Under the pieces are notes generated by a model. It was not told the origin of the DNA. It saw only the letters and a program-made list of their open reading frames with translations, and ran no database searches. Below, in pieces: positions 83-4,633 of a stretch of 4,633 bases of DNA. The DNA comes from a virus (lineage: Duplodnaviria > Heunggongvirae > Uroviricota > Caudoviricetes), in IMG/VR virus record IMGVR_UViG_2667527914_000002; one strand, written 5' to 3'. The position numbers and the translations under genes were made by a program. The first letter of the stretch is position 1. Each line of letters opens with the position of its first letter.

Positions 83-116
83 AAAAAAATCCGGAAACAA
101 GTGAGCGTTTCCGGAT
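83..116 (-). terminator. Intrinsic-terminator-like hairpin plus T-tract inside the IS4 end, immediately upstream of the transposase ATG
   Basis: Perfect 10-bp stem (plus-strand 89-98 atccggaaac and 107-116 gtttccggat) with an 8-nt loop. On the minus strand it is followed by TTTTTTT (89-83) and then the transposase ATG at 82. Confidence 0.5.
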
Positions 117-148
117 TCTTACACAGCCACTGGATCGGTCAACTGATC

Positions 149-166: not shown

Positions 167-1306
167 CACCACCGGGACGCGGATTCATATCTTCCAGGTC
201 GCGGCAGTCATTGGAAGAGTAAATTCCCCAGTTGATCCCGGTGGCGTAGGCTTCAAAACGGGACTTCATATCCCCGCGCAGTAACGCCCCGGCGTTAAAT
301 TTGGCGTAATAAACGCCCTGCTTACTTTTTCGTACCAGTCCGGTGTTGATCCGCTGTTCGATGCGGGTCAGATACGGCACCAGTGAATAGTTGATAAATC
401 CCAGCCCCAGCTCTTCGATATTGTTGAAGGTGGCGCGATCGGTGTTCTGCACCATGTGCAACGGCACCCGGAACAGACGACAGATTTCTTCCAGCTGAAA
501 CTTGCGGGTTTCCAGGAACTGACTGTCCTCGGCGTTCAGCGCCATCGACTTCCAGTCCAGCCCCATTTCCAGAATCATCGGGCGGTGAGCATTGCCAAGC
601 CCCGTGTGACACTCCTCAAAATCTTTCTTCAGACGCTCGTAAGCATCCGGCGTGAGCTTTTGTTCCGTACGCAACACACCGGATGTCACCGCACCATTAC
701 TAAACAACCTGGCACCGTGCTCCTCGGTTGCCGCTGCCAGTGAAATGGCCTCACGCGCATACGCAATGGGATTCAGCCCGACAAGTCCATCCAGCGTCAG
801 GGTGCGCACATGCCAGATTTCATTCTGGGTCAACACATCCACGGAACCATCCGGAAACGTCACCTGATAAACCGGCTGCCACTGGCTGTTCAGCTTCGGT
901 TCCACACAGCCCGGATCTATCGGAAGAAGCTCCACCACTTCTCCCAGTGCCTTTACCTTGTAGGCGTAAAAATTCCCCCGTAGACACAGGCAGACAATAA
1001 CCAGCTCCCAGAATTCCTGCGGTGTCATGTAGCCATTAGGTTTTGCCGAAACCAACTTATGCAGTCGTTCATCCACCGCCCGTGTTTTCAGGGTACCGCT
1101 GATTTTGTAGAGACTGCAGGGCAGCATACCAACAGACTCTGCCAGCACCCTGACGCAAGAATAGACCGCCGTCAGGCGCATGGCCCGCTGGCTACTGATC
1201 CGCTTTCCGGTATAGGTGTCGTATGACAGCCCGATAGCATCAGCAGTTCTGCTGGCGTGGTCACCGGCACATCGCTTTTTCGTTGAAATAATCCCGAAAA
1301 GAACAC
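150..1306 (-). pseudogene. Phage portal protein, HK97 family; apparently disrupted by an N-terminal frameshift and by IS4 insertion at the 3' end
   Basis: The 415-aa ORF (150..1397) contains portal-like conserved segments (RLTAVYSCVRVLAESVGMLP near the N-terminus, NDCRDLEDMNPRPGG near the C-terminus). Its frame has no credible start after the upstream ORF's stop. A GTG at 1306-1304 with GGAGGT 5 nt upstream opens a different frame encoding a portal-like N-terminus ([22 protein letters not shown]...) that stops at 1172. The last 5 codons (VMPIS) and stop at 150-152 are encoded by IS4 sequence. Confidence 0.75.
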
Positions 1307-1488
1307 TATTTACCTCCGCCGACAGACTGCCGTGTACGGTCGAGATATCGCGCCACCAGCCACGACCAGAACAGGCACAGCGCCCCGGCAACAACAAAAC
1401 CCGCCGGGGGATAAATCAGCCAGGCACCATACGCCAGCAAAAGCGCACCCAGCACGCCCACCAGAGGCGCGAGAATCAGCATGATCAT
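1306..1488 (-). CDS. Hypothetical small membrane protein (60 aa, two predicted transmembrane helices)
   Basis: ATG at 1488-1486 with GAGGT 5 nt upstream, starting 11 nt after the TerL stop. Its stop TAG (1308-1306) overlaps the portal GTG start (TAGTG). Sequence [60 protein letters not shown] has two hydrophobic stretches and a basic C-terminal tail. No homolog recognised. Confidence 0.55.
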
Positions 1489-1499
1489 AATTACCTCAG

Positions 1500-3233
1500 T
1501 TAAAGCGAGCGGATCCCGTAGGACTCAATGTGGTCAGACAGCGTGTCTTCTTTCTCGTACAGCATGGCTCTGCCAACCGCCATAATCAGCGCAACTGCAC
1601 CATCGATTTTGTTTTCCGCCTGCTCTTTGACGGGTTTCACCACATCATCGTTACCCGGCATGTTTTTGCCGACCACGTTGCCGATACACCAGGTCATGAT
1701 GGGATTGCCGTCATGATGAAAACGTCCCGATTCAATCGCTGCTTCCAGCTCTTTCATCGGATCGGACATATTGGTGAAGTTCTGGACGATAGTGACGGGA
1801 TTCAGGTCTTCATCAGCAAGGTCATGTGACAACCCGGTCGCCCCGAAGGGGTCGATGGGTGACTCACTGACCGGGCTGATTTTGTTCGCCGCTTTGGCCT
1901 CCTCGAGGATGTAGCGATAATCCACCTCCGCACCATCGGTAACGGTCAGAACGCCCATTTCCACCCATTTCTGAAAGCGTTCGGCTGTCCGTCGATCTTC
2001 ATTTTTCTCGACGCTGTACACCGTGTCATACGGTACCCAGAAACGCGGGGCCACACTGTAGTAATGCGTTTTACCGTCAATCTCGCGGGTATAAAGTCGC
2101 GCCATGCTGTTCATATCCAGCTTACGCGCCAGGTCAAAGGCCAGAATGCACGGCTGCCCCTCGAACTGCTCAAGGGTCAGTGATTTATCCTCGCAGCTCT
2201 GCCAGCTCACCAAGTTGAAATACGCCGAACGCGCCGACACCCAGATATTGAGGTGTTTTGTTTTAAAGACGTTTGCCAGACGGGCGTTATTTTTCGCACG
2301 CTGCTGCTGACTTAACAAAAATTCGCGATAAACCGACACGCCAATATTTGGATTGGCTTTTTCCAGCACCTGCGGGCCGGTCCAGTCGTCACCTTCATCA
2401 ACGGTATAGATGATCCCGAACAGTTCATCGTTAGGCACCGAGCCGTTGAGCATCTCGATGACTTCCCGCCGCTTGTCGTAGCACGGCCCCTCAATGTTGT
2501 ACCCGGCGGTGGTGATGGCCCACATCAGTGGCTGACGTCGCGCCCCCATCCCGGTAAGCATTGTGGTATAAAGCGCATCGGTGGCATGCTCGTGATATTC
2601 ATCAACCACGGCACAGTGGGGTGATGAACCATCACCTGGGTTGCCGATCAGCGGTTCAAACCGCGCGCCATCCTCCGGACGGTTCATGTTTGAGGCGTTA
2701 ACCTCAATCCCGAACGCTTCCGTCAGCATGGGTGTGCGTTTACACATCAGTCGCGCCGGGCGAAAGACTTCCCACGCCTGTTTCTCTGTCGTGGCACCGG
2801 AATACACTTCCGCGCCAAACTCGTTATCACAGGCAAAACAATACAGGGCAACACCGGCAGAGATTGCTGATTTGCCGTTCTTACGGGGGATTTCGGTGTA
2901 CACCTCCCGGAAGCGGCGCAACCGGGTGCCTTTATTGACCCAGCCAAACGCACAGCAGATCACAAATAGCTGCCACGGCTCCAGCGTGATGGGCATCCGT
3001 TTGAATGCCCACTCCCCCTTGGTGTGCGGCAACAGCTGAATAAATTTCGCGGCCCGTTCAGCCAGGTCCTTGTCGAAGCGGTAACGAAACGACTTACTTT
3101 TTTCCGCCATCAGGTCATCAAGATGGCGCTGGCAGGCCTGAATCACAAACTGGCAGGCAACAATCTTTCCGCGCACGACATCCCGGGCATACTGATTTGC
3201 AGCATTTACGTTGGGGTAAGATTTCCGGCTCAT
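1500..3233 (-). CDS. terL: Phage terminase large subunit (577 aa)
   Basis: ATG at 3233, TAA at 1502-1500. N-terminal ATPase domain with a Walker A-like P-loop (IPRKNGKS) and Walker B (CAVVDEYHE). C-terminal nuclease domain with acidic motifs ([22 protein letters not shown]). Size and motif order fit terminase large subunits. Confidence 0.92.
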
Positions 3234-3724
3234 GATTCGATAATTTTCAGAAACGGGTTAGTGGCTTTCTTCTGCCCCGCCAGGCCAATCAGACGCTGGC
3301 GGCTGCTGGGGTCGAGTCCGAGCATTGCCCCCGTGCTGCTCATCTCGGACTCCTGTTCTTTTTTGGCGGTCAGCTCCGGATTTTTGACCCTGCCGCCCAT
3401 TGCACCGGTGATGGTGTTGCCCTGTATGGCAATATTTTTCACGGCACGTCGCCAGAACTCATAGGCCACGCACCACCGCTCAAGTACCGCCAGGTCAGTC
3501 ACGCACAGCAGGCCCTGACCGCAGAGTTCTTTGGTTGTCAGTTGCCACATGATCGTGGCGAGAGGGAGATCTTCTTCAGCGAACCACTCTGGTGGCTCAA
3601 CACCTTTGATGGGCGTAAAAACAGGTTCATCTTTGTTCAGGGCTCGCTTGCCGGGGTTTCCGGCCAGCGCCTTGCGCGCCGTTGGCTTGGGGCGACGCCC
3701 GGAACGCCCCGCCGTTCCAGCCAT
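3230..3724 (-). CDS. terS: Phage terminase small subunit, P27 family (164 aa from ATG 3724; alternative GTG start at 3733)
   Basis: N-terminus [34 protein letters not shown] matches the P27-family TerS signature as I recall it. AGGAG lies 8 nt upstream of the ATG at 3724. Stop TGA (3232-3230) overlaps the TerL ATG (ATGA). Confidence 0.85.
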
Positions 3725-3763
3725 ATGCGGCACTCCTGGTTAAATTTCATTTTTCGCGGGTAT

Positions 3764-3823
3764 AAAAAAACGATGGGGCGGGCAGTCCGGAAGACGTCAG
3801 GTCACAGGGATTTGCCCCGCCCC
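3764..3823. other. Candidate cos / packaging-recognition region: GC-rich imperfect inverted repeat with adjacent A/T run
   Basis: Arms ggggcgggca (3775-3784) and tgccccgcccc (3813-3823) flank a 28-nt spacer containing the palindromes tccgga and gacgtc. A7 run at 3764-3770. It sits in the HNH-terS intergenic region (3725-3845), where cos lies in HNH-containing HK97-like phages. Confidence 0.35.
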
Positions 3824-3845
3824 TCCCTACAAGTGAGAATAATTA

Positions 3846-4196
3846 TCACCGGATTCGTTCGCGCGCTGTTTTCGCTTTATGGCAGGGCCAGCACAGACTC
3901 TGCAGGTTGCTGTCTGCGTCTGTTCCGCCATGCGCTTTCGGGATGATGTGGTCGACGGTTTTCGCCTCGCTCACCACACCGACACGCAGACACAACTGAC
4001 ACAGACCTTTATCGCGCTTCAGAATACGGGCACGAATCACCGTCCATTTTGAGCCATAGCCACGCTGGTGGCGGCTCAGTCCGCGCTGGTGCTGCACCCA
4101 GCCTTCACCGCGATGTTTATCGCAGTAACCCGAACTGTCTGTGGTTGTACCTGCACATCCACGCTTACGGCAGGCACGTGGGATTAGTGATGGCAT
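3846..4196 (-). CDS. HNH endonuclease, phage packaging-associated (116 aa)
   Basis: ATG at 4196 with GAGGT 4 nt upstream. Cys-rich N-terminus (CRKRGCAG...GYCDKH), HNH-type motif VDHIIPKAHGG, then N...CWPCH. Position immediately upstream of terS is typical for cos-phage HNH proteins. Confidence 0.88.
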   Translation of the reverse strand: MPSLIPRACRKRGCAGTTTDSSGYCDKHRGEGWVQHQRGLSRHQRGYGSKWTVIRARILKRDKGLCQLCLRVGVVSEAKTVDHIIPKAHGGTDADSNLQSLCWPCHKAKTARERIR

Positions 4197-4238
4197 AAAT
4201 ACCTCATACCCTGCGAAATGTTTACCACGATAAAAAGG

Positions 4239-4633
4239 CTACTTAATGCACTGAGTGCGGATATACTCCTGTGCCCCTTCCAGTTGCATCTGCATCGTCA
4301 TCAGCCGCTCTCTGAGGGTGAAATAATCCCGTTCAGCGGTGTCTGCCAGTCGGGGGCTGGTTGCATTATCCACGCCGGAGGCGGTGGTGGCTTCACGCAC
4401 TGACTGACAGACTGCTTTGATGTGCAACCGACGACGACCAGCGGCAACATCAGCGCGCAGAGTTTCATTTTCAGCTTTCGCATCAGCTAACTCCTTCGTG
4501 TATTTAGCATCGAGTGCATTAACATCACGCTGTCTCTGCTGCATGTCAGTAATGGTTGCGTTCGCCAGCTTCAGTTCTCTTGCGTTTTTGTCGCGCTGCT
4601 CTTTGTAGGTAATGGCGTTATCACGGTAATGAT
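4239..4633 (-). CDS. Rz: Rz i-spanin (inner-membrane spanin subunit), 5'-partial; start lies beyond the window end
   Basis: Frame is open to the window edge. Translation [110 protein letters not shown]... is near-identical to phage lambda Rz as I recall it. Stop TAG at 4241-4239. Confidence 0.93.
4301..4483 (-). CDS. Rz1: Rz1 o-spanin (outer-membrane lipoprotein spanin subunit), embedded out of frame within Rz
   Basis: ATG at 4483 with AGGAG 7 nt upstream. [60 protein letters not shown] has a lipobox (VVGC, Cys20) and a proline-rich mature part, near-identical to lambda Rz1. Wholly inside Rz in a different frame. Confidence 0.93.

What the first reader, a model, noticed from the sequence alone, without database searches (positions are those of the whole stretch)
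3725..3845. GC-rich inverted repeat in the HNH-terS intergenic region: candidate cos site
This 121-bp gap is the only sizeable non-coding region in the packaging module. It carries an imperfect inverted repeat (ggggcgggca / tgccccgcccc) around a spacer with two 6-bp palindromes, flanked by an A7/T7 run. In cos phages that pair an HNH endonuclease with terminase, cos lies between the HNH gene and terS, and known cohesive ends (lambda, P2) are similarly G+C rich. On the minus strand the same structure resembles a long-loop terminator (stem, then TTTTTTT), which late antiterminated transcription would have to read through.
Basis: inference. Interest (0 to 1): 0.5.

Follow-up and report, generated by a model that had tools for sequence, protein, structure and literature searches.

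The report
Known phage cos packaging site

Summary
A 121-bp gap (3725-3845) lies between the HNH gene and terS. It holds an inverted repeat (3775-3784 / 3813-3823), two 6-bp palindromes and an A7 run.

The cos interpretation is supported. On the coding (minus) strand, 3784->3775 reads TGCCCGCCCC. This is identical to the 10-nt cohesive end mapped by run-off sequencing of SfI virion DNA. It sits at the position of the annotated cos-site of phiP27 (CGCCCGCCCC).

The layout also matches HK97-type cos sites, which have a 10-nt 3' overhang and use HNH plus TerL. It has four parts: a G-rich/CAAATC block 30 nt upstream, the C-rich overhang, a T-run, and an ACCCG + A-tract block. That last block sits where HK97 TerS binds (+15..+29).

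The inverted repeat itself is not the selected feature:
- 6.7% of shuffles of the gap reach its length.
- Across 35 related cos regions the arms do not covary.
- Distant relatives lose the complementarity but keep both blocks at fixed spacing.
- The palindromes lie in a variable spacer.
- The terminator reading is not supported.

Side finding: the same roughly 83-bp cos unit occurs without HNH or terminase genes at the end of an ~11-kb satellite-like island in E. coli.

Novelty: already known. Interest: low.

The parts
3846..4196 (-). HNH endonuclease gene (116 aa). It is the last gene before cos and the presumed partner of TerL in cos cutting.
   Evidence: ORF. Pfam HNH PF01844, E=1.6e-16. 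PDB 5h0m HNH endonuclease, E=1e-12. HK97 gp74 (an HNH protein) stimulates cos cleavage (PMC9410871).
3806..3827 (-). Upstream conserved block, GGGAGGGGCGGGGCAAATCCCT on the coding strand. The C of CAAATC lies 30 nt before the start of the cohesive end. Candidate cosQ-like, HNH-recognition or TerL-recognition element; this role is inferred.
   Evidence: AAATC is invariant and the G-run nearly invariant in 35 distinct cos regions. HK97 and HK75 have the same block at the same 30-nt distance. The orphan cos copies of satellite-like islands keep it.
3789..3805 (-). Spacer of conserved length and variable sequence. It holds the two 6-bp palindromes TCCGGA (3786-3791, partly overlapping the conserved GGAC) and GACGTC (3793-3798).
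   Evidence: The alignment is gapless and these columns are not conserved.
3775..3784 (-). Cohesive end (the cosN equivalent): TGCCCGCCCC on the coding strand and GGGGCGGGCA on the + strand. Predicted nicks: minus strand between 3775 and 3774, plus strand between 3784 and 3785, giving 10-nt 3' extensions.
   Evidence: 10/10 identity to the SfI cohesive end mapped on virion DNA, and the SfI record ends on it. The phiP27 cos-site feature is at the homologous position. 74 of 79 close relatives carry the same 10-mer. The 3' polarity is inferred from the 'gap' seen in SfI run-off reads and from HK97.
3764..3770 (-). T7 run on the coding strand (+5..+11 from the nick). It is a conserved A/T tract between the cut site and the candidate TerS site.
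Evidence: TTTTT is nearly invariant in alignment A1.
3740..3763 (-). ATACCCGCGAAAAATGAAATTTAA (+12..+35). This is the most conserved block of the gap. It is the candidate TerS recognition site (cosB equivalent); the core ACCCGCGAAAAAT spans +14..+26 (3761->3749).
   Evidence: CCCGCGAAA is invariant from Shigella to Cupriavidus. In Xenorhabdus, Photorhabdus and Morganella the block stays next to the cut site although 40-60 nt are inserted before terS. HK97 TerS binds +15..+29, CTAACCCGATTTTTT, needing the C:G pair at +21 and the A/T tract (PMC11331095). Binding here is inferred.
3733..3737 (-). AGGAG ribosome-binding site, 8 nt upstream of the terS ATG (3724).
   Evidence: Sequence. SfV, SfIV and SfI annotate the same terS start.
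3230..3724 (-). terS, small terminase of the P27 family (164 aa).
   Evidence: Pfam Terminase_4, E=3.7e-20. 98-99% DNA identity to the terS region of SfI, SfII, SfIV and SfV. 48% protein identity to phiP27 TerS.
1500..3233 (-). terL, large terminase (577 aa) with ATPase and nuclease domains, HK97-like.
   Evidence: Pfam TerL_ATPase and TerL_nuclease. PDB 6z6d 'Terminase large subunit', E=5.4e-26; I take this entry to be the HK97 TerL structure of PMC9410871, but the tool output does not name the phage.

Best explanation
The gap is the cos site of an SfV/SfI/phiP27-type temperate phage, now a prophage. It is built on the HK97 plan.

Proposed steps during late growth, when the genome is concatemeric:
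1. The small terminase (P27 family) recognises the conserved ACCCGCGAAAAAT/A-tract block about 14-30 bp downstream of the cut site.
2. The large terminase nuclease and the adjacent HNH endonuclease make two staggered nicks. One lies on the coding strand after ...TGCCCGCCCC (between 3775 and 3774). The other lies on the opposite strand 10 nt upstream (between 3784 and 3785). The result is 10-nt 3' cohesive ends.
3. Packaging runs from the terS side and ends at the next cos.
4. The upstream G-rich/CAAATC block, 30 bp before the cohesive end, belongs to the same site. It probably positions the nuclease or HNH, or acts in termination, in the position that cosQ holds in lambda.

It is not a hairpin under selection.

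What is shown and what is inferred:
- Shown: sequence identity to a mapped cohesive end, the conservation pattern, and the protein families.
- Inferred: the 3' polarity in this phage, TerS binding to the ACCCG block, and the role of the upstream block.
For: - Identity to mapped sites. TGCCCGCCCC equals the SfI cohesive end mapped on virion DNA. The SfI record ends on it. phiP27 has a cos-site feature at the homologous position.
- Sequence identity around it. The terS-side flank is 98-99% identical to SfI, SfII, SfIV and SfV. The HNH-side flank is 94% identical to phiP27.
- Proteins. HNH, a P27-family TerS and a TerL are present in the expected order.
- HK97 plan. HK97 and HK75 junctions show the same order and the same 30-nt spacing. 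HK75 annotates its last 10 nt, CGCCGCCAAA, as 'cos site'. The window/HK97 alignment score was reached by 0 of 500 shuffles.
- HK97 biochemistry. 10-nt 3' overhang, TerS site at +15..+29, and HNH-stimulated cutting.
- Conservation. 35 distinct relatives align without gaps and share four conserved blocks.
- Context. 94 of 121 IMG/VR sites matching the cos core have HNH upstream and TerS plus TerL downstream. Most exceptions are contig ends.
- A natural delimitation. Orphan copies in satellite-like islands keep exactly the stretch from the G-rich block to ATGAAA.
Against: - No virion DNA from this prophage was examined. Whether it is inducible is unknown.
- The window has G where nearly all relatives have T at 3815 in the upstream block. 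This variant is seen in 5 of 79 close relatives.
- The original SfV and phiP27 papers could not be read.
Confidence: 0.93

Rival explanations
1. The inverted repeat forms an RNA hairpin on the late (minus-strand) transcript. Followed by U7, it acts as an intrinsic terminator or attenuator between the lysis/HNH genes and the terminase genes.
For: The minus-strand RNA can pair GGGGCGGGGCA with UGCCCGCCCC, and a U7 run follows 4 nt later. A late transcript has to cross this gap.
Against: - The loop is 28 nt and 4 nt separate the stem from the U-run. The terminator scan found none, although its loop limit is 8 nt.
- The fold is no more stable than shuffles: z=-1.0, with 28 of 200 shuffles as good.
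- Pairing is not maintained in relatives. 72.3% of cells pair against 73.4% in shuffles, only one pair changes on both sides, and distant relatives pair at 1-5 of 10 positions. The T-run and both blocks stay conserved.
- No Rfam family matches in the gap.
Confidence: 0.05
2. The two arms are symmetric half-sites for one dimeric DNA-binding protein, such as terminase, HNH or a host factor. On this reading the inverted symmetry itself is functional within cos.
For: Both arms are conserved blocks held at a fixed distance. HK97 also pairs a G-run with a C-rich overhang in inverted orientation. The paired fraction is higher in register (72%) than when slid by 1-3 columns (49-55%).
Against: - Arm changes are not matched. 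GGGGCGGG to GGGGGAGG on the left does not go with the changes on the right, such as CCCGCCCC to CCCGCCTC.
- Column 13/54 pairs are mostly non-complementary, 22 of 35.
- The in-register excess is expected because the structure was derived from the window and its close relatives.
- The invariant parts differ between the arms: CAAATC on the left and GAC.GCC on the right.
Confidence: 0.12
3. The repeat is a chance feature of a non-functional, decaying prophage remnant and has no present role.
For: 6.7% of shuffles reach an 8-nt inverted repeat. Many E. coli prophages are defective.
Against: All packaging ORFs in the window are intact. The 10-mer and the flanking blocks are identical or nearly identical to those of plaque-forming phages. 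The region is conserved across genera.
Confidence: 0.03

Closest known systems
cos site of Shigella flexneri serotype-converting phages SfI, SfV, SfIV and SfII
   Same: The 10-nt cohesive end TGCCCGCCCC is identical. The terS-side flank is 98-99% identical. The gene order is the same: Rz/Rz1, HNH, cos, terS (P27 family), terL.
   Different: The HNH gene and the sequence just upstream of the G-rich block are closer to phiP27 (94%) than to the Sf phages, which shows module mosaicism. One base in the upstream block differs (G for T at 3815).
cos-site of Stx2e phage phiP27 (GenBank misc_feature 21806-21815)
   Same: Homologous position and block structure. The cohesive end is CGCCCGCCCC, 9 of 10 identical. 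HNH is 94% identical at the DNA level. The TerS belongs to the P27 family.
   Different: The TerS is only 48% identical. The sequence after ACCCGCGAAA differs (TTAAAAATTTCAGG against AAATGAAATTTAACC).
HK97 / HK022 / HK75 cos (10-nt 3' overhang, HNH gp74-dependent)
   Same: Same position between the HNH gene and terS. The G-run + ATCAAATC block lies 30 nt before the cohesive end. The cohesive end is C-rich and 10 nt long (CGCCGCCAAA). It is followed by an A/T-rich stretch and ACCCG + A/T tract, where HK97 TerS binds. TerL is homologous.
   Different: The TerS proteins show no sequence similarity. ACCCG lies at +18 in HK97 and at +14 here. The overhang sequences differ. HK97 has about 320 bp and sometimes an extra ORF between HNH and cos.
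Lambda cos (cosQ-cosN-cosB)
   Same: Analogous three-part logic: an upstream element, a G+C-rich staggered cut site, and a TerS site on the terS side. Packaging starts toward terS. This rests on established knowledge and on PMC6739421.
   Different: Lambda has a 12-nt 5' overhang, needs no HNH protein, uses gpNu1 with R elements and an IHF site, and shows no sequence similarity.

Membership tests
SfI/SfV/phiP27-type cos site | The 10-nt cohesive-end sequence TGCCCGCCCC (or CGCCCGCCCC), lying between HNH and terS | tested here: met
   Exact match at 3784->3775 on the minus strand. The SfI mapping is in PMC3636060 and the phiP27 feature.
SfI/SfV/phiP27-type cos site | A P27-family small terminase directly downstream | tested here: met
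   Pfam Terminase_4, E=3.7e-20. RefSeq relatives are annotated 'phage terminase small subunit P27 family'.
SfI/SfV/phiP27-type cos site | Virion DNA ends at this site | not testable with these tools
   This needs particle DNA. It has been shown for SfI, whose sequence is identical.
HK97-type (HNH-assisted, 3'-overhang) cos | An HNH endonuclease gene immediately upstream and an HK97-like TerL downstream | tested here: met
   (PDB 6z6d, E=5.4e-26).
HK97-type (HNH-assisted, 3'-overhang) cos | A 10-nt 3' protruding cohesive end | not testable with these tools
   Inferred from the 10-nt 'gap' (not an overlap) in SfI run-off reads and from HK97.
HK97-type (HNH-assisted, 3'-overhang) cos | A TerS recognition element about 15-29 bp downstream of the cut: a C:G pair within ACCCG followed by an A/T tract | tested here: met
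   The sequence pattern ACCCGCGAAAAAT is present at +14..+26 and conserved. Protein binding was not tested.
HK97-type (HNH-assisted, 3'-overhang) cos | A TerS homologous to HK97 gp1 | tested here: inconclusive
Intrinsic (Rho-independent) terminator | A stable G+C-rich hairpin with a short loop, followed at once by a U-run, and conserved as a structure | tested here: not met
   The loop is 28 nt with a 4-nt spacer, z=-1.0. The scan was negative. There is no covariation.
Lambda-type cos | A gpNu1-type TerS, R elements with an IHF site, and a 12-nt 5' overhang | tested here: not met
   The TerS is Terminase_4, not the Nu1 family. The closest relatives are HK97/P27-type.

The most novel reading that the evidence does not exclude
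The upstream G-rich/CAAATC block is a distinct cos element that, as far as I could find, has not been described. It would work like cosQ or as an HNH/TerL positioning site.

- It lies exactly 30 bp before the cohesive end.
- It is conserved from HK97-type to P27-type phages although their small terminases are unrelated in sequence.
- It is retained in orphan cos copies.

Together with the cut site and the ACCCG/A-tract block it would form a portable cos unit of about 83 bp. A family of ~11-kb satellite-like islands in E. coli would then use this unit to be packaged by SfV/P27-type helper phages.
Probability: 0.35. Interest if true: 0.45.

Novelty: already known. Interest (0 to 1): 0.22.

Why it matters
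For this window, the result fixes the genome ends of a very common prophage type. The HNH-cos-terS segment is found in 1898 of 5426 complete E. coli genomes. This helps in annotating such prophages, orienting their genomes and predicting cos-type, non-generalised packaging.

The comparative picture gives concrete targets for HK97-type packaging studies, which so far have defined only the TerS site:
- four blocks at fixed spacing;
- the architecture shared with HK97 despite small terminases that are unrelated in sequence;
- an orphan cos on satellite-like islands.

None of this changes the main verdict. The site itself is already mapped in the literature.

Tried and rejected
- **Terminator and promoter scan of 3400-4300.** No terminator, and no minus-strand promoter in the gap.
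- **RNA folds of both strands.** Not significant.
- **Covariation of the repeat arms.** None found, so the hairpin or cruciform reading was rejected.
- **tRNA scan.** I ran it because GGGTCAAATCC resembles a T-arm. It found nothing.
- **Rfam at E<=1.** Nothing in the gap. The only hit was a chance miRNA match inside terL.
- **TerS against HK97 gp1.** BLASTP, Pfam, hhalign and PDB sequence searches showed no relationship.
- **Papers not held.** The SfV, phiP27 and Kala 2014 papers could not be read.
- **Full-text searches for the 10-mer strings.** They returned only unrelated papers.
- **HK633 record ends.** I expected them to bracket the 10-mer, but they did not fit cleanly, so I did not use them.

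Full report
**1. Anatomy**

All genes in the window run on the minus strand (Pfam):
- Rz/Rz1 spanins, from 4239 upward.
- An HNH endonuclease, 3846-4196.
- A 121-bp gap, 3725-3845.
- terS, 3230-3724 (Pfam Terminase_4, the P27 family).
- terL, 1500-3233 (ATPase and nuclease domains).
- A 60-aa hydrophobic ORF, 1306-1488.
- A portal gene, 150-1304.

**2. The observation**

- GGGGCGGGCA at 3775-3784.
- TGCCCCGCCCC at 3813-3823.
- TCCGGA at 3786-3791.
- GACGTC at 3793-3798.
- A7 at 3764-3770.

The repeat has a perfect 8-bp core and extends by 2 bp across a one-base bulge.

Taken alone it is weak evidence. 6.7% of 2000 dinucleotide-preserving shuffles of the gap hold a perfect inverted repeat of at least 8 nt. 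Neither strand folds better than shuffled controls: z = -1.0 and -1.5.

**3. What it is**

A megablast of 3500-4100 against phage records matched two groups:
- SfI, SfII, SfIV and SfV, at 98-99% on the terS side.
- phiP27, at 94% on the HNH side.

Several of these linear records start or end inside the gap. Three results place the cohesive end:
- phiP27 has an annotated 'cos-site' of 10 nt, CGCCCGCCCC. It aligns with the window's TGCCCGCCCC on the coding strand, 3784->3775.
- The SfI record ends exactly on ...CTGCCCGCCCC.
- The SfI paper sequenced the termini of virion DNA directly. Compared with the prophage, it found a 10-nt gap, 5'-TGCCCGCCCC-3', and concluded cos packaging (PMC3636060).

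The SfIV and SfII papers report the same cos.

Among 79 close relatives from IMG/VR, 74 carry this 10-mer.

The segment is very common. 1898 of 5426 complete E. coli genomes have a match.

**4. Polarity of the ends (inferred)**

Both SfI run-off reads lacked the 10 nt. An overlap would have been expected for 5' extensions. This indicates 3' extensions, as in HK97, whose cos ends carry 10-nt 3' overhangs (PMC9410871 and PMC11331095).

In window coordinates the nicks would fall as follows:
- Between 3775 and 3774 on the minus strand.
- Between 3784 and 3785 on the plus strand.

**5. Comparative anatomy**

I collected the region upstream of terS from 41 genomes. Their TerS identity to the window ranges from 99% down to 49%, from Shigella to Cupriavidus. 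I added phiP27, ST64B and SfV.

Thirty-five distinct sequences align over 94 columns essentially without gaps. On the coding strand the order is:
1. A G-rich run ending in an invariant (T)CAAATC.CT (window 3827->3806).
2. A spacer of fixed length and free sequence.
3. GGAC followed by the cohesive end (3788->3775).
4. About 4 variable bases and a T-run (3770->3764).
5. ATACCCGCGAAAAATGAAATTTAA (3763->3740), whose CCCGCGAAA core is invariant.
6. The ribosome-binding site and terS.

In Xenorhabdus, Photorhabdus and Morganella, 40-60 extra bases separate block 5 from terS. The block stays beside the cut site. It therefore belongs to cos and not to the terS start.

**6. The inverted repeat is not what is conserved**

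I counted the ten proposed pairs on the alignment:
- 72.3% of cells pair, against 73.4% in column-preserving shuffles. 448 of 500 shuffles reach the observed value.
- Only one pair shows changes on both sides.
- The covariation score is below the shuffled mean.

Only the SfV/phiP27-like subgroup has the 8-10 bp repeat. Distant relatives pair at 1-5 of the 10 positions, yet they keep both blocks at the same spacing.

The repeat is best read as a G-rich block facing a C-rich cohesive end. This, the 28-nt loop, the 4-nt spacer before the T-run and the weak fold argue against the terminator reading. The scan found no terminator and Rfam has nothing in the gap.

**7. Relation to HK97**

The HK97 junction (right end joined to left end) reads GGGGGGGGGATCAAATCTTC, then spacer, then GACCGCCGCCAAA | GTTTGAATTTAACGCTAACCCGATTTTTTTAG.

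- HK75 annotates its last 10 nt, CGCCGCCAAA, as 'cos site'.
- The distance from CAAATC to the cohesive end is 30 nt in both HK97 and the window.
- The window/HK97 alignment score was reached by 0 of 500 shuffles.

For HK97, the minimal TerS site is +15..+29. It has an essential C:G pair at +21 and an A/T tract at +24..+29 that must stay A/T-rich (PMC11331095). With the GenBank numbering this stretch is CTAACCCGATTTTTT. The window has ACCCGCGAAAAAT at +14..+26, four bases closer to the cut.

On the protein side:
- TerL matches PDB 6z6d 'Terminase large subunit' at E=5.4e-26. I take this entry to be the HK97 TerL, but the tool output does not name the phage.
- The HNH protein matches a phage HNH endonuclease structure, 5h0m.
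- The two TerS proteins show no sequence relationship.
- An AlphaFold model of the window's TerS (pLDDT 76) found nothing with Foldseek.

Assigning block 5 to TerS is therefore an inference. I put it at about 0.6.

**8. A natural delimitation of the site**

I scanned IMG/VR for the cos core and found 121 sites.
- 94 have HNH upstream and TerS plus TerL downstream.
- Most exceptions are contig ends.

Loci L177, L192 and L207 carry a complete cos with none of these genes. Similarity to the phage cos begins at the G-rich block and stops right after ...AAAAATGAAA, which corresponds to window ~3827->3745.

In E. coli DETEC-P169 this orphan cos closes an ~11-kb island at tRNA-Ile. The island encodes:
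- an integrase;
- an Icd-like protein;
- a D5-like primase;
- a ClpP-protease/major-capsid fusion;
- tail-assembly fragments;
- a DUF1441 protein.

129 complete E. coli genomes hold at least 80% of the query segment that spans the DUF1441 gene, the orphan cos and tRNA-Ile.

E. coli PICIs are known to carry helper-type cos sites (PMC6739421). A satellite that borrows this cos is therefore plausible but untested. Its retention of all blocks supports the view that they form one functional unit.

**9. Verdict**

The site is already known, because an identical sequence was mapped in SfI.

The corrections are:
- The cohesive end is one arm of the repeat, not the repeat.
- Neither the symmetry nor the palindromes are conserved.
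- The terminator idea fails.
- The most conserved element, the probable TerS site, was overlooked.

The role of the upstream block and the satellite-like islands are the only parts with some novelty.

Noticed in passing
L177, L192, L207 (IMG/VR); L257 = NZ_CP116166.1 700918-724502, island at about locus 1691-12585: A complete cos of the same type, from the G-rich/CAAATC block to ACCCGCGAAAAATGAAA, occurs with no HNH, terS or terL nearby. It sits at the end of an ~11-kb island at tRNA-Ile. The island encodes an integrase, an Icd-like protein, a D5-like primase, a ClpP-protease/capsid fusion and a DUF1441 protein. 129 complete E. coli genomes hold at least 80% of the DUF1441-to-tRNA-Ile query segment that contains the cos. 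It is a candidate phage satellite that borrows this cos.
   Followed up: partly
window 83-120, minus strand: A very stable hairpin (stem about 12-15 bp around AAUCCGGAAAC/GUUUCCGGAUU) followed by U7, just downstream of the portal stop codon (150). Folding 70-135 gives -32.1 kcal/mol with z=-7.5. It looks like an intrinsic terminator inside the late operon, and its U-run abuts an ATG at 82. The simple terminator scan did not list it.
   Followed up: partly
window 1306-1488, minus strand: A 60-aa strongly hydrophobic ORF (two predicted membrane helices by eye) lies between terL and the portal gene. It has no Pfam match.
   Followed up: no
window 3230-3724 (TerS) compared with L135:50-535 (HK97 gp1): P27-family and HK97-type small terminases have no detectable sequence similarity, and no P27-family structure was found in the PDB by sequence. 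Yet their cos sites share block order, spacing and the ACCCG + A/T-tract motif.
   Followed up: partly
L155 (IMGVR_UViG_2711768073_000020), sites at 3528 and 6399: Two complete cos + terS starts lie 2.9 kb apart on the same strand of one viral contig. This could be a tandem or mosaic packaging module, or an assembly artefact.
   Followed up: no
L117, L121 and other Xenorhabdus loci, columns about 40-62 of alignment A1: In Xenorhabdus relatives a different, local inverted repeat brackets the cohesive-end position. Examples are CCCAAGG...CCTTGGG and CCCAC...GTGGG, which differ between strains in a seemingly compensatory way.
   Followed up: no
window 3815: The window has G where almost all relatives have T in the GGGTCAAATC block. 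The same variant is found in 5 of 79 close IMG/VR relatives, which are identical to the window over 400 nt.
   Followed up: partly
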